From Candidatus Thorarchaeota archaeon (lineage in GTDB: Archaea; Asgardarchaeota; Thorarchaeia; Thorarchaeales; Thorarchaeaceae): 64,000 nucleotides of DNA. The stretch spans positions 224,001 to 288,000 of the forward strand of contig JAWOEX010000028.1 of assembly GCA_046482545.1 (NCBI GenBank), read 5' to 3'. The translations under genes were made by a program, and so were the position numbers. Of this stretch, positions 1 through 14,554 are shown piece after piece. Under the pieces are notes generated by a model. That model saw nothing but the letters and a program-made list of their open reading frames with translations, did no database searches and was not told the origin of the DNA. Within the stretch, counting starts at the first letter, position 1. The number at the start of each line of letters is the position of its first letter.

Positions 1-514
1 GGTGAGGATAAGCAGCCCGCATCGAGCCTTCCAACACAAAGGCGTCTTCAAGAATTTCTTCAGTCAGGCTTTCCATTCTGAGAAGGCCTGGAACAGACCA
101 TGAGCTTCGGCTAACCAGCATGCCCACCGAAGTGGGATTGTCTGAGAGAGGGCGCCAGACAAAGAAACTCAGCCGACCGCCGGATGATCTCTCATATCTT
201 TCACTCATGGCTGCTAGAACACTGCTGGCAGAATGAGAAAGATCAATACCAAGAGGAACATGCGCCAGAAGGCGAGCTGCATAGACCTCTACTTTGAATA
301 ATCCAACCCTTGCCACAAGTCCTTTGTCTTCATCCAGAAAAACTTGGGCTGGCTGAAGTCTTGTGCGCACAAATACGACTACTATCAGTATCGCTATGAT
401 TCCAATCACCGATTCGATTTTCACCATCAATGACGCTACGAATATCAGACGAAGCCCCCAAGCCGCAAGTATGGCACTACAGAGCAGCCAAGGTAAACCG
501 CGAAATCTACTCAT
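1..514 (-). CDS. Hypothetical membrane protein with two N-terminal hydrophobic segments; partial, runs off the left edge
   Basis: Not in the ORF track. Manual translation from ATG at 514 gives MSRFRGLPWLLCSAILAAWGLRLIFVASLMVKIESVIGIIAILIVVVFVRTRLQPAQ...SMRAAYPH, open to position 1. The start overlaps the end of the helicase gene. Confidence 0.8.
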   Translation of the reverse strand, partial: MSRFRGLPWLLCSAILAAWGLRLIFVASLMVKIESVIGIIAILIVVVFVRTRLQPAQVFLDEDKGLVARVGLFKVEVYAARLLAHVPLGIDLSHSASSVLAAMSERYERSSGGRLSFFVWRPLSDNPTSVGMLVSRSSWSVPGLLRMESLTEEILEDAFVLEGSMRAAYPH

Positions 515-2465
515 TTCTATTCCTCCCTCCCTCAATGAACCATTCAATGGCCTCTCTCAATTCACTCAGACCGGTGTAAGGCCACATATCAGCAATAACA
601 TCAGCGCCCAGTACTCTGGAATACTTCACGAATCTATTGTCAAGTAGAACACAAATACCTCGGTCTCTCAGATTTCTGCGGAGGCGTCCGATAAGCTGTG
701 TAACCCGACGGATGGCAGGTAATACGGACGAGTAGTAGTATCCATGCCCCTGGCCAAAGCGTTGATCGTAGAACTCCTGCAGGGCGAGATTATAGGAAGT
801 CGGTGGTGAGAATGGAACACCTACGGCAATAATTAAGTTGAGTAGTGACGACCCCTCGTCCACCAAATCTACCCCTTCCGTAAGTCTTCCTGCGTATACA
901 GAGAAGATGGTATGTGGGCGGTCAAGGAGAGCATCAAGTACTGCTTCGATTCGTACCCCTCGTTTTTCTGTGATCTTTCCGCGATAACGGTTGTTGATGT
1001 CGTAGCTCAGAACTTGATTCATGATCCTGTAACTTGGAAAAGCAACGAGCGCGCTCTTATCAGCAGGTACACTCTCAAGGGTGGCCTCGATCTTGGTAGC
1101 GATATTTCGCCACAAAGATTCGTTTCTTTCCGTATATTTTGTCGTTAGCTGTTTATCAACCAAGACTATACGGGAATCTCGCGGAAAGGGGCTATCAATT
1201 TCAGCCACAGCTGGGCTTGTGATTCCCAGTAGCCTAGCGTAGTGTTCGGAAGGACGCATTGTTCCAGACATCAGCAATGCCGACCTAGCATTAACGAGCA
1301 CCGGAGCTGTCAATCCAGCAGAATTCAATGGTCGTATTGCGAGTACTGCGTTCGAACAGCTGACCTCCCAGTTCGGGTTTAGGAGCTCAAGTGTGATGTG
1401 CCATGAATTGCTGTCAATTGCACGAAAAGCATTGAATAAGAAATCAAGCAGCTGGTCCACTTTTCCTTCCAGCTTGGTTGACAAAGATTCGAACTGGCCA
1501 CCGGTTACCAGAGCTTCCAGCTGTTCTGGAACCACGAACCTAGGAAATACATCGTATGCAGGCAGTTCCTCTTCGTTACTACTAAGTTGGTCTAGGTGTG
1601 TCATCAAACTCTCAAAAAGAAATTCTATGCTTTCTCCAACCCAAGAAACTCCCAATTCATTTTCAATATGCGGAAGCTGTTCCAGCAATGCTTCAATGTC
1701 TTTTCCGGTCAGAAGAGAACCTTCAGAACTCAGCACAAATGAAGGTAGATTGTGAGCTTCATCTATGAGCAGGTCAATCTGATTCAAATCAAGTGAGAGG
1801 GTGCTTAGTAGTGCGCGGCGAGCGCGGTGGTTGAAAAGATAACCGTAGGAACCAATCAAGACCTTGCTGGATTTAGCACACCACCTCATAATCTCGTACG
1901 GGCAAGAACCTGATACTTCAGCTTGCTCTTCAATCAGCGCGCGGGTTATAACTGCCTTTTTGAGTAACTCATCAACCAAGTCAACTGACTCAGCTCTAAT
2001 CCGGGGAGCTTCTCCCTTTCCGCCCTTGTAGAAACTCCAATAGTATGAACACCTTCCAGTTTTGATAGCCTCAGCACATGATTTGAGAAAGCCCTGTTTG
2101 AAATCGGTATCTAGTTGATGGCGAAGGGGACACATGTGCGACCGAGAAACCATACTCGTTGATGTTACTGGGCTCTGGCCGGCATCCTCTTGATACTTTT
2201 TTCGGAGCTGTTCGAGTTCAGACTCGAACACTTCCGACTGTGAGTGAGTCCTCGTGAGAATCAAAAGCTGGGCTGATGAATCGTTATCTCTTGCTGCAAA
2301 CCAACCTGCCAGCGCAGCGATTGTCTTTCCCACGCCACAACCTGCCGATAGCATCCCGATTTTTCGTCCTCTGAAAACATCAGCTGCATGTGTGACAGCC
2401 TGCTCTTGATTTGGCCTCGGTTGATAGGGGAAATGATTCATGGGATTTGAAGATGACAGACTCAT
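507..2465 (-). CDS. XPD/Rad3/DinG-family Fe-S DNA helicase
   Basis: Q motif (PRPNQ), Walker A GCGVGKT, four Fe-S cysteines (HMCPL, SCAE, RCSYY, SCPYE), LIDEAHNL, SGT and QLIGRLRR. ATG at 2465 overlaps the upstream TAA. Confidence 0.93.
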   Translation of the reverse strand: MSLSSSNPMNHFPYQPRPNQEQAVTHAADVFRGRKIGMLSAGCGVGKTIAALAGWFAARDNDSSAQLLILTRTHSQSEVFESELEQLRKKYQEDAGQSPVTSTSMVSRSHMCPLRHQLDTDFKQGFLKSCAEAIKTGRCSYYWSFYKGGKGEAPRIRAESVDLVDELLKKAVITRALIEEQAEVSGSCPYEIMRWCAKSSKVLIGSYGYLFNHRARRALLSTLSLDLNQIDLLIDEAHNLPSFVLSSEGSLLTGKDIEALLEQLPHIENELGVSWVGESIEFLFESLMTHLDQLSSNEEELPAYDVFPRFVVPEQLEALVTGGQFESLSTKLEGKVDQLLDFLFNAFRAIDSNSWHITLELLNPNWEVSCSNAVLAIRPLNSAGLTAPVLVNARSALLMSGTMRPSEHYARLLGITSPAVAEIDSPFPRDSRIVLVDKQLTTKYTERNESLWRNIATKIEATLESVPADKSALVAFPSYRIMNQVLSYDINNRYRGKITEKRGVRIEAVLDALLDRPHTIFSVYAGRLTEGVDLVDEGSSLLNLIIAVGVPFSPPTSYNLALQEFYDQRFGQGHGYYYSSVLPAIRRVTQLIGRLRRNLRDRGICVLLDNRFVKYSRVLGADVIADMWPYTGLSELREAIEWFIEGGRNRNE

Positions 2466-12634: not shown

Positions 12635-14554
12635 CTACAATCTTTGTTGTGTAAGAAGCTCCGAAGTATCGGTATCCCAATTTCCATCATCTTTCAGTAA
12701 TCTACGAAAGAAATCTGATCGATATGCTCTGAATGCTGTTGCTGGCACCATGCTTATTTGTGCATCAATACTCGAAATCGATTCTGAAATCTTTTCTCTG
12801 TTTTCGTGACTGATGCGTGCAAGAGCATAACCATGAGTTCTATTGCGCTCCAGAAACACCTGGCAGGTTGGCAGCGATTCCAGCAATGCCGCCAACAGAG
12901 AGCAGGTGGTCTTCTCATCGCCACGGAGTTCTAAGAATATGCTTTTGAGACCGATGATGCTCACTCTATAGCCAATGTCAATCGCTTCTTGGCTGCGAAG
13001 CGATTCAAGGCATTCCTTTATCGTTTCTTGGTTTATTTCTGTCCCTGGAATGCCTGCAGAAAGTTCCATCTCAGCAAGCCAGCCTCTTGATACAGCATAA
13101 TCAAGGATGTTAGCCTCGGTAGGACTAGGTGTTTTCATTACACCATTCATACTGTCTCCGAACCGAGCTCTCAAGTCATCCACGGAGGTCATTTCTCTAG
13201 ATTTGAATCTCTTCATATCTAGTTTCCAATGGTCTTGTTCCGGATCGTAAAGATGGTAATTCTGTTGCGATGCTGAATAGGCAATCATGCGGGTGCTCGG
13301 AATATGTCTCTTAACCTGTTGGGCTGCGATCGGCGGCATCACCATATGGTGAAAGTATAGCGGATGTTTATCGGTCCCGTCTATTCGAACTATGAACCGA
13401 AGATACTTGTGCGGCCAACGATATGCTCTCCCCAAGTAGACAATTTCCTGTAATCCGAAAGCAGCGGTCCTGACATGCGGCCATAGCCTGAGTCCCCTTG
13501 TCAATGACATCATCCGTTGGAGCCAGGACTTCCATGAATGTCGTGCTTTTGTACGACTGATAGGAAGAGAGGTTATGATTTCTTTTGTTTTGTTGAGTTT
13601 CTTAGCTATGGTAATCACATTTTCAGGTTGGTCATACGTCCTTCGCACATAGGATAGAAACCTAGTCCATGGTTGTTCCTCAACTTCTTCAGGTGGATTA
13701 GAGCCAAGAAGAGGTAATTGGCCAGCCTCAGCTTGCCACATGAATCGTACATACGGGAAATTCGGTATTTTAGAACCTAGGCGAAGATAGTAATTCTTGA
13801 GCAATGCAAGAAACAGGGGTTTGTCTTGAAATCGTGGGAAAAAATCAAGGGGATCCTCTGTGGGTCTGCCAAGACATGTATAAGCAAGAAAAGCCATGAG
13901 TTGCTCACGAATATCTTCTGGCCATTGAGGAGGAACAACTCCATTGAGACATTTCTTTAGTGTCTCCCCCACCAGGTTCACTCGCACACCATGCGTAATG
14001 CGCGCAAGACATTCCCAGTCCGGACGAGGATTATTGAGTATTGAAATCGGATTAATATCCGTTTCAATCCGTGACATTCCCTTCCGCCACAACGCAGCAT
14101 CGCTTTGATAGCGAAAAGGACCGGCCTCATAGTGCTCAATTGTATGAGCTTGGACTAGGTTCCCGTCTTGCACGACAGCAAGATAATACTTCTTTGAGCC
14201 CTCGATAGCATGCAGAAAGAAGGTAGCTGTATCATTACCGTACAGCCATCTGGGATACCATAGATTGGTATCCTCGGGATAAATCCTGGCTTCAATAGCC
14301 TCATTGAGGAGACGAGCAAATACGCCCTTGCGCGAAAGCACCGGTTCAAGGCGAATGAGAAATTCCTCGCCCTGCTGCACGACAGTATTACCTTCCTCGT
14401 CAAGAATCGCTTCTTTGGCCAGCTTGACCCGAGCACCTGAACAAATCTCCTCACCTGAATTCAACTGAACGAATGGTCCGTTTACTTTCCAAGAGATCTT
14501 CGCCTGGTGCCAATCATGGTCGAGTTGAATGAGGACATCCCAAGACTCTACCAC
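12635..14554 (-). CDS. Large putative regulator with C-terminal Lrp/AsnC-like wHTH-RAM unit(s)
   Basis: PHVRTAAFGLQEIVYL and PSPTEANILD...LESLRSQEAIDIGYRVSIIGLKSIFLEL...LPTCQVF...GYALARI parallel the C-terminal half of the convergent 528-aa protein. GGAGATGAG SD-like sequence upstream. Confidence 0.6.
   Translation of the reverse strand: MVESWDVLIQLDHDWHQAKISWKVNGPFVQLNSGEEICSGARVKLAKEAILDEEGNTVVQQGEEFLIRLEPVLSRKGVFARLLNEAIEARIYPEDTNLWYPRWLYGNDTATFFLHAIEGSKKYYLAVVQDGNLVQAHTIEHYEAGPFRYQSDAALWRKGMSRIETDINPISILNNPRPDWECLARITHGVRVNLVGETLKKCLNGVVPPQWPEDIREQLMAFLAYTCLGRPTEDPLDFFPRFQDKPLFLALLKNYYLRLGSKIPNFPYVRFMWQAEAGQLPLLGSNPPEEVEEQPWTRFLSYVRRTYDQPENVITIAKKLNKTKEIITSLPISRTKARHSWKSWLQRMMSLTRGLRLWPHVRTAAFGLQEIVYLGRAYRWPHKYLRFIVRIDGTDKHPLYFHHMVMPPIAAQQVKRHIPSTRMIAYSASQQNYHLYDPEQDHWKLDMKRFKSREMTSVDDLRARFGDSMNGVMKTPSPTEANILDYAVSRGWLAEMELSAGIPGTEINQETIKECLESLRSQEAIDIGYRVSIIGLKSIFLELRGDEKTTCSLLAALLESLPTCQVFLERNRTHGYALARISHENREKISESISSIDAQISMVPATAFRAYRSDFFRRLLKDDGNWDTDTSELLTQQRL

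What the first reader, a model, noticed from the sequence alone, without database searches (positions are those of the whole stretch)
1..14554. Hypothesis: a peptide-signalled recombination/DNA-exchange regulon (competence-like) in an Asgard-type archaeon
Seen within 14.5 kb: a RadA/XPD operon ending in a membrane protein, a RadA paralog lacking Walker A, a large structured RNA sharing upstream boxes with that operon, and two tandem-Lrp-like proteins flanking a Trp/Pro micropeptide gene. Established: in streptococcal ComRS an aromatic-rich peptide encoded beside its receptor switches on DNA uptake and recA; in Sulfolobales the inducible Ced/Ups systems couple DNA exchange to recombination. Inference: these parts may form one circuit (peptide, then regulator pair, then two-box promoters, then recombination genes and RNA). 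I do not recognise this combination as a described system. Clustering alone does not prove linkage.
Basis: inference. Interest (0 to 1): 0.8.

Follow-up and report, generated by a model that had tools for sequence, protein, structure and literature searches.

The report
Asgard peptide-linked DNA recombination gene cluster
A family of Asgard archaea keeps a large DNA-recombination and cell-surface gene cluster together with two related regulator genes, a tiny lineage-specific peptide gene and lineage-specific promoter boxes, which looks like an undescribed peptide-switched DNA-exchange programme; the proposed 'large RNA' is only a broken gene.

Summary
Mostly real, with two parts removed. The window is from a Thorarchaeia genome. 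The RadA/XPD operon continues left as a 15-gene unit (VirB4/HerA-like pseudo-ATPase, Ski2 helicase, two more RadA-like proteins, FEN1-like nuclease, membrane proteins), collinear in 16 relatives. It is linked to both tandem-Lrp-fold proteins, a GH3 ligase and a 2,600-aa surface protein. The micropeptide is a selected gene: Pro-rich, Pro-Trp/Phe-ended, often multi-core peptides flank the 639-aa regulator at 27 of 40 held-out loci (control 6.7%; 36 with relaxed rule). The two-box element occurs six times in this genome. Relatives carry their own, different box pairs on the same promoters (12 of 23 pairs beat the null). Refuted: the 'structured RNA' is an internally deleted GH3 pseudogene (z = -0.34), and the Walker-A-less RadA at 7280-8008 has no box and no conserved linkage. 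The peptide gene lacks the box. Binding, export and DNA transfer are untested. This scan already found the peptide/Lrp module in other genomes; the link to the recombination operon and the lineage-specific boxes is what this adds.

The parts
2..547 (-). 2-TM protein (203 aa, runs off the window); soluble part resembles the VirB4/TrbE N-terminal domain; 7th gene of the 15-gene operon
   Evidence: (TM 0.53 to a PF27097 cluster; own cluster is Thorarchaeota)
507..2489 (-). XPD/Rad3-like helicase paralog, Walker A and DEAH intact; a second XPD lies on C28
2465..3079 (-). conserved soluble protein of unknown family (204 aa)
3083..3520 (-). Zn-ribbon plus winged-helix protein (145 aa)
3517..4551 (-). 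dedicated full-length RadA paralog (344 aa), Walker A and B intact; a more canonical RadA is on C14
4548..4997 (-). conserved protein of unknown family (149 aa)
4997..5803 (-). first gene of the operon, unknown family (268 aa as called; true start probably about 25 codons later)
5828..5922 (-). two-box promoter element of the operon (21-bp upstream box 5902-5922, 13-bp downstream box 5828-5840)
7280..8008 (-). RadA-like protein without Walker A; no box; NOT a conserved part of the cluster
9644..10061 (-).
10208..10302 (-). second two-box element, in the divergent gap between the GH3 remnant and the 528-aa regulator
10654..12240 (+). R528: helical N-domain plus tandem Lrp/AsnC fold with two winged helices; candidate box-binding regulator
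12255..12276 (-). GC-rich hairpin after the peptide gene (terminator-like)
12289..12321 (-). micropeptide gene MIPDWPDVPW, SD at 12329-12335
12635..14554 (-). R639: beta N-domain, helical domain and tandem Lrp/AsnC fold; the peptide gene's constant neighbour, candidate receptor

Best explanation
A chromosomal, family-wide, switchable programme of Thorarchaeia for cell-contact DNA exchange with homologous recombination, gated by a lineage-specific peptide. SHOWN by comparative genomics: the 15-gene operon, the membrane-protein/2,600-aa surface-protein operon and GH3 share a lineage-specific two-box promoter; two paralogous tandem-Lrp-fold genes stay with them; a selected Pro-rich peptide gene with core ending Pro-Trp/Phe travels with R639. 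INFERRED: (i) precursors are cut after the Trp/Phe to release 6-12-residue cores (2-4 repeated cores and dispensable 2-residue tails point to this); (ii) the core binds R639, probably acting with R528 (about 0.6); (iii) the regulator pair binds the two boxes, about 70 bp apart, and switches the operons on (about 0.65); (iv) the giant surface protein makes cell contact, the VirB4/HerA-like and VirB4-N-like membrane proteins form a passive DNA conduit, XPD and Ski2 helicases supply the motor, the RadA paralog with two RadA-like mediators does strand exchange and the FEN1-like nuclease trims flaps (about 0.5); (v) box-induced GH3 adenylates the aromatic C-terminus of the peptide or another acid to mature or quench the signal (speculative). 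Fast joint divergence of peptide, regulators and boxes would make the switch kin-specific.
For: Operon collinear in 16 family genomes, R528 directly behind it in 15; also in further genomes and the sister family. R639 beside the giant gene or just upstream of the operon. R639 in 54/59 and the ATPase-like protein in 41/59 family genomes. Peptide ORF ending P-W/F/Y within 450 nt of R639: 17/28 discovery, 27/40 held-out, control 6.7% of 2193 genes; 8 more have the motif plus a 2-residue tail and 1 is antisense. 38 synonymous to 21 non-synonymous codon changes in 12 close pairs; repeated cores within a precursor mostly differ at synonymous sites only. Peptide types follow R639 clades, also for paralogs in one genome (quick tree). 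Box sharing between the two operon promoters within a genome beats a between-genus null in 12/23 pairs, mostly about 200 nt before the start; GH3 versus membrane-gene promoter 7/17 against 0.7% null. ATPase-like protein: ESM features 0.91-0.92 to DUF87/TrwB/CedB/VirB4 clusters, weak HMM hits to HerA. Catalytic motifs of RadA, XPD, Ski2, FEN1-like and GH3 are kept.
Against: No exporter, signal peptide or active peptidase in the cluster. The peptide gene's promoter lacks the box. R639-peptide cassettes also occur away from the cluster, next to unrelated genes, and other tandem-Lrp families carry similar peptides, one pair in front of a CRISPR type I-D-like operon, so the peptide need not act on this operon. 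About six cluster-linked R639 loci showed no peptide nearby. The ATPase-like protein lacks Walker A everywhere; no CedA-like 6-7-TM channel or pilin was found. 11/23 promoter pairs show no significant two-box sharing. Kin are not independent, so the p-values overstate. No expression or binding data.
Confidence: 0.4

Rival explanations
1. Same regulon and same regulator/peptide module, but the peptide is an intracellular small-protein ligand (co-activator or inhibitor of R639), and the operon is a membrane-anchored repair or stress programme with no cell-to-cell DNA transfer.
For: No signal sequence or exporter; all enzymes are repair-type (RadA, XPD, Ski2, FEN1-like); the HerA-like protein is catalytically dead; in this genome one box also heads a GH3-TBP-HEAT-RadA paralog operon, as alternative basal factors do in the Sulfolobales damage response (TFB3, PMC6101594).
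Against: Multi-core precursors and lineage-variable cores fit a released, amplified signal better than a stoichiometric subunit. A 2,600-aa signal-peptide/Ig-domain surface protein under the same box is hard to explain by repair alone. Housekeeping-type RadA, XPD and FEN1 homologs exist elsewhere in the genome.
Confidence: 0.27
2. Two separate things share a neighbourhood: a box-controlled DNA-exchange/recombination regulon run by R528 (always divergent from a boxed promoter), and an independent R639-peptide cassette with other targets.
For: R639-peptide paralogs sit away from the cluster in many genomes; the peptide promoter has no box; R528 is divergent from a boxed promoter in both gene orders.
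Against: One R639 copy stays with the cluster through at least three different gene orders, including this genome's, where R528, peptide, R639 and GH3 moved together upstream of the operon. R528 and R639 are paralogs, and the second peptide-associated locus on C44 also has two adjacent 500-aa genes.
Confidence: 0.2
3. The peptides are RiPP-like precursors (GH3 as maturation enzyme) for an antimicrobial or structural product, and the Lrp-fold proteins are peptide-modifying enzymes like their closest solved match NirDL/AhbAB rather than transcription factors.
For: Best structural match of both proteins is the Lrp-fold siroheme decarboxylase NirDL; multi-core precursors are typical of RiPPs (own knowledge); GH3 is an adenylating ligase with intact motifs.
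Against: Identity to NirDL is 10-15%; winged helices are retained; related atlas clusters carry AsnC-type HTH families; lineage-specific promoter boxes need a fast-evolving DNA-binding protein, and these two are the ones at hand; GH3 is boxed with the operon, not with the peptide gene.
Confidence: 0.08
4. Chance clustering, or the boxes are footprints of a mobile element or promoter duplication in this genome only.
For: The exact 21-bp box was not found in 60 relatives apart from one 19/20 match.
Against: Relatives carry different box pairs at the same promoters and distance; same-genus genomes carry a diverged version of this box; gene order is conserved family-wide; no integrase or tRNA end at the sites.
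Confidence: 0.05

Closest known systems
Streptococcal ComRS/ComX competence and other RRNPP peptide-receptor cassettes (own knowledge)
   Same: Short peptide with an aromatic C-terminal residue encoded beside a candidate cytoplasmic regulator; peptide varies by lineage with its partner; a shared promoter box heads recombination genes.
   Different: Receptor candidates have a tandem Lrp/AsnC fold, not TPR/HTH; two paralogs; multi-core precursors; the peptide promoter lacks the late-gene box; no ComEA/ComEC/type IV pilus genes in the cluster.
Ced and Ted DNA-import systems of Sulfolobales/Thermoproteales (PMC9905601; CedD in PMC11868833)
   Same: Chromosomal, VirB4/HerA-like protein plus small membrane proteins; a second protein with a VirB4-N-like domain recalls CedB/CedD sharing the VirB4 N-domain; link to recombination.
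   Different: Walker A lost; no 6-7-TM CedA/VirB6 channel or CedA1/VirB2 pilin recognised; a 2,600-aa Ig/toroid surface protein, three RadA-like proteins, XPD, Ski2 and a FEN1-like nuclease are in the cluster; control appears to run through Lrp-fold proteins, not Orc1-2/TFB3 (PMC6061795, PMC6101594).
Lrp/AsnC regulators and the Lrp-fold enzymes NirDL/AhbAB
   Same: Tandem wHTH-RAM fold (Z about 11 to 4czc; Z 5-6 to archaeal Lrp proteins).
   Different: Large extra N-terminal domains of unknown kind; 10-15% identity; constant association with a peptide gene rather than an amino-acid ligand.
Yeast alpha-factor and fungal multi-core peptide precursors (own knowledge)
   Same: 2-3 near-identical cores separated by short spacers in one precursor.
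   Different: No signal peptide, no KR sites, no sequence likeness; resemblance of architecture only.
GH3 acyl-acid amido synthetases (PF03321, PF23571, PF23572)
   Same: All three Pfam domains and adenylation motifs in the intact copies.
   Different: The window copy is a pseudogene; substrate unknown.

Membership tests
RRNPP / ComRS | receptor with TPR peptide-binding domain | tested here: not met
   Confident models (pLDDT 87-88) show beta/helical N-domains plus a tandem Lrp fold; best matches are Lrp-fold proteins. N-domains were not searched alone.
RRNPP / ComRS | short peptide gene adjacent to the receptor gene, co-varying with it | tested here: met
RRNPP / ComRS | peptide exported, re-imported and bound by the receptor | not testable with these tools
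   no signal peptide or exporter seen in the cluster; needs experiment
RRNPP / ComRS | peptide gene under the same regulator box as targets (positive feedback) | tested here: not met
   peptide promoters versus boxed promoters 14.5 against null 14.4; a different motif is not excluded
Ced/Ted DNA import | VirB4/HerA-like ATPase (CedB/TedB) | tested here: inconclusive
   family likeness by ESM features 0.91-0.92 and HMM E 0.05-0.1, but Walker A lost in 18/18
Ced/Ted DNA import | 6-7-TM VirB6-like channel (CedA/TedA) | tested here: inconclusive
   cluster membrane proteins have 1-5 predicted TM segments and no family hit; no direct profile comparison with CedA was possible
Ced/Ted DNA import | VirB2-like 2-TM pilin (CedA1/TedC) | tested here: inconclusive
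   no small all-hydrophobic 2-TM ORF in the operon by hydropathy; rest of the genome not searched
Ced/Ted DNA import | DNA-damage-inducible chromosomal DNA import | not testable with these tools
   needs cultures or stranded RNA data
Lrp/AsnC fold | winged helix plus RAM/ferredoxin-like domain | tested here: met
Large structured (ornate) ncRNA | stable conserved fold, not protein-derived | tested here: not met
   z = -0.34; GH3-derived, 56-79% amino-acid identity to the intact paralog in four segments
GH3 | N, middle and C domains with adenylation motifs | tested here: met
   intact C31 copy and relatives; window copy is deleted and frameshifted

The most novel reading that the evidence does not exclude
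Thorarchaeia have a pheromone-controlled, kin-specific mating-like programme: multi-core Pro-Trp peptides sensed by a pair of tandem-Lrp receptors switch on a surface adhesin, a domesticated VirB4-like DNA conduit and a dedicated RadA recombination set. The same peptide/tandem-Lrp chemistry is reused for other targets such as CRISPR-Cas, making it a general archaeal peptide-signalling family.
Probability: 0.3. Interest if true: 0.95.

Novelty: categorically new. Interest (0 to 1): 0.8.

Why it matters
I found no paper on peptide signalling through Lrp-fold proteins or on a DNA-exchange operon in Asgard archaea (9 searches; the library is incomplete). If the circuit holds, it is a peptide-gated recombination programme in the archaeal relatives of eukaryotes, built from parts unrelated to bacterial competence regulators, which bears on how regulated sex arose. 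It is directly testable without culturing: dozens of natural peptide/regulator/box sets allow cognate versus non-cognate binding tests. Related VirB4-like/Ski2/RadA/surface-protein loci in other Asgard families extend the question to cultured lineages. Even if DNA exchange is wrong, a lineage-specific two-box regulon with a co-varying peptide and regulator pair is undescribed.

Tried and rejected
Structured RNA: rejected. Exact 21-bp box and exact peptide in 60 relatives: not found, because both diverge by lineage; the one 19/20 match in G021 lies before another Lrp-like gene but is unlike G021's own box, treated as chance. Box as tRNA-derived att site: the 19 tRNAs called show no match beyond a CCACCA-like end, and no integrase is near. 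Complex prediction of a relative's R639 with its 38-aa precursor: no answer (score 0.14, mark 0.32), counted neither way. My impression that the 200-aa membrane protein is an inactive M50 peptidase got no support. The search for related loci on named genomes failed; taxonomy rests. Seven GH3-versus-operon promoter matches of 20/20 are the same divergent gap read twice and were excluded. One discovery-set peptide (G012) is probably spurious. The R639 tree is the quick version with long branches. Literature searches found no description.

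
Full report
Source. The window is G000:C9:224001-288000 of a 3.05-Mb, 99%-complete genome.

The operon. Seven overlapping minus-strand genes fill 5803 to 1: two unknowns, a RadA paralog, a Zn-ribbon/wHTH protein, an unknown, XPD and a 2-TM protein. Left of the window it continues with a 90-aa protein, a 758-aa membrane-anchored protein, a Ski2/Hel308-type helicase, a 2-TM 514-aa protein, a RadB-like ATPase, a 4-TM protein, a RadA-like protein without Walker A and a FEN1/XPG-like nuclease; then a HEAT-like protein, a 5-TM 200-aa protein and a 2,597-aa protein with signal peptide, prenyltransferase-type toroid, Ig/macroglobulin domains and a C-terminal anchor. 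The 758-aa protein groups with DUF87/TrwB/CedB/VirB4 clusters (0.91-0.92) and weakly with HerA structures, but Walker A is lost in all 18 orthologs; RadA, the RadB-like protein, XPD, Ski2 and the nuclease keep their motifs. The 2-TM protein's soluble part resembles the VirB4/TrbE N-domain (TM 0.53). A more canonical RadA, a second XPD and other FEN1 homologs lie elsewhere, so this is a dedicated extra set.

Linkage. The 15 genes are collinear in 16 family genomes, with the 528-aa regulator (R528) convergent right behind the nuclease in 15. The common order is GH3, operon, R528, membrane gene, giant gene, 639-aa regulator (R639), peptide; in other genera GH3 and R639 sit just upstream of the operon; in this genus R528, peptide, R639 and GH3 lie together upstream. 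R639 is in 54/59 and the ATPase-like protein in 41/59 family genomes. The sister family has the whole operon with GH3 and an R528-like gene; other Asgard families have distant ATPase-like genes beside Ski2, RadA, FEN1-like or large surface-protein genes, but no clear R639 was found there. The Walker-A-less RadA at 7280-8008 was seen at the cluster only in the same genus and has no box; it is a passenger.

The 'RNA'. 9580-10190 folds no better than shuffles (z = -0.34) and has no Rfam match. It matches both ends of an intact GH3 gene on C31 (73-77% DNA identity; Pfam): codons 10-44 are fused to 406-525 at a 12-nt near-repeat, with two frameshifts. A same-genus genome has intact GH3 there. The shared boxes therefore belong to a GH3 promoter.

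The boxes. The 21-bp box occurs six times in the genome, always about 62 nt upstream of the 13-bp box: before the operon, the GH3 remnant, the membrane/giant operon, the intact GH3-TBP-HEAT-RadA operon on C31, a decayed gene on C31 and a contig end. The exact word was not found in 60 relatives. But each lineage has its own pair: comparing operon and membrane-gene promoters within a genome, 12 of 23 pairs exceed a between-genus null (n = 683, mean 22.5, sd 1.15, maximum 28; best within 36, 34, 32, 32), with box 1 mostly about 200 nt before the start and the boxes mostly 63-84 nt apart. GH3 promoters share the same words in 7 of 17 independent comparisons (null 0.7%). Conserved ends with a variable middle, at fixed distance, in three unrelated genes and many lineages, is the pattern of binding sites for a fast-evolving regulator (inference). 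The peptide gene's promoter does not share them.

The regulators. Both fold confidently (pLDDT 88.5 and 86.9) into a tandem Lrp/AsnC module (4czc: Z 11.1, rmsd 5.2, 256 aligned; Z 10.8, rmsd 5.7, 266 aligned) behind N-domains of unknown kind, and are paralogs. They diverge fast (47-59% within genus, 16-30% between), in step with the boxes. R528 is divergent from a boxed promoter in both gene orders. That they bind the boxes is inferred.

The peptide. MIPDWPDVPW has an SD, a hairpin and a second copy with six synonymous changes only. An ORF of 6-45 codons ending P-W/F/Y lies within 450 nt of R639 on the same strand at 17/28 discovery loci and 27/40 held-out loci, against 6.7% of control genes; eight more held-out loci have the motif plus two residues and one is antisense. 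Of 60 cores, 45 end E-P-aromatic (the P-aromatic end is the search rule). Many precursors hold two or three cores with short spacers, mostly differing at synonymous sites only. Since genes end either at the aromatic residue or two residues later, processing next to it is likely. Peptide types follow R639 clades, also for paralogs in one genome. Other tandem-Lrp families have similar peptides (12/25 loci, control 18.5%, with a clear PPDDPxPIPPW type among the closest homologs), including C44 of this genome before a type I-D-like CRISPR operon. This scan had already noted the peptide/Lrp module in other genomes; those notes are not independent support.

Mechanism and odds. Co-regulated cluster: about 0.85. 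Regulators bind the boxes: about 0.65. Peptide is the ligand of R639 or the pair: about 0.6; acting between cells: about 0.45. Operon moves and recombines DNA between cells: about 0.5. Whole circuit in some form: 0.4; full kin-specific mating-like reading: 0.3. Main rivals: intracellular peptide with a repair programme (0.27), or two neighbouring but separate modules (0.2).

Comparison. It would work like streptococcal ComRS competence and like Ced, but fails the RRNPP receptor test and cannot be filed under Ced/Ted as defined in PMC9905601 (VirB4 ATPase, VirB6 channel, VirB2 pilin): only a catalytically dead VirB4-like protein is seen. No paper describing it was found.

Noticed in passing
L199:1006-9574 (G000:C44): Peptide gene MYHPPDDPHPIPPW is divergent from two 500-aa genes (the first a distant R528 relative) that precede an HD-domain Cas10d-like, Csc2 and further type I-D-like genes. 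Homologs in four other genomes and one metagenome contig carry PPxDPxPIxPW/F peptides.
   Followed up: partly
L200:7441-13406 (G000:C31): A boxed operon: intact GH3, a TBP paralog, HEAT-like protein, small protein, another full-length RadA paralog and a membrane protein. An inducible alternative TBP could act like an alternative sigma factor; not seen in the relatives' loci fetched.
   Followed up: partly
L010:1498-1530 (G000:C12:45008-45040): Orphan second copy of the peptide gene (TTG start), between an LRR-protein gene and a glutaredoxin/thioredoxin-reductase pair, with no regulator nearby.
   Followed up: partly
L141-L157 (other Asgard families): Distant relatives of the VirB4/HerA-like protein, split in two or fused to about 1,270 aa, next to Ski2, RadA-like, FEN1-like and 880-1,080-aa surface-type genes: possibly a pan-Asgard module.
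   Followed up: partly
L041 and L116 (G001): Two contigs carry near-identical R528 loci with peptide alleles ending PW and PF.
   Followed up: no
L074, L206-L207 (G032, G008): A second full-length RadA paralog replaces the 149-aa gene in the operon.
   Followed up: no
L121, L136, L138 (G011, G031, G025): Two tandem TFB-like genes lie directly beyond the peptide/R639 pair.
   Followed up: no
L229, L233, L236, L237, L238: A third tandem-Lrp-like family (about 540 aa, often after a 220-230-aa gene) also has nearby Pro/Trp peptides such as MKRPNNDPKGPDWPW and MVIPGDPEDPPW.
   Followed up: no
L201:7867-10728 (G000:C14): Topoisomerase VI subunit A (Spo11-like) fused to a long N-terminal run of helix-hairpin-helix repeats, 953 aa, about 4 kb from the canonical radA.
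   Followed up: no
window 6317-9579 and 14635-16248: Yip1-domain protein, ArsB/CitMHS-type transporter and a glycosyltransferase-like membrane protein lie in or beside the cluster here; only the last is kept there, within the genus.
   Followed up: partly
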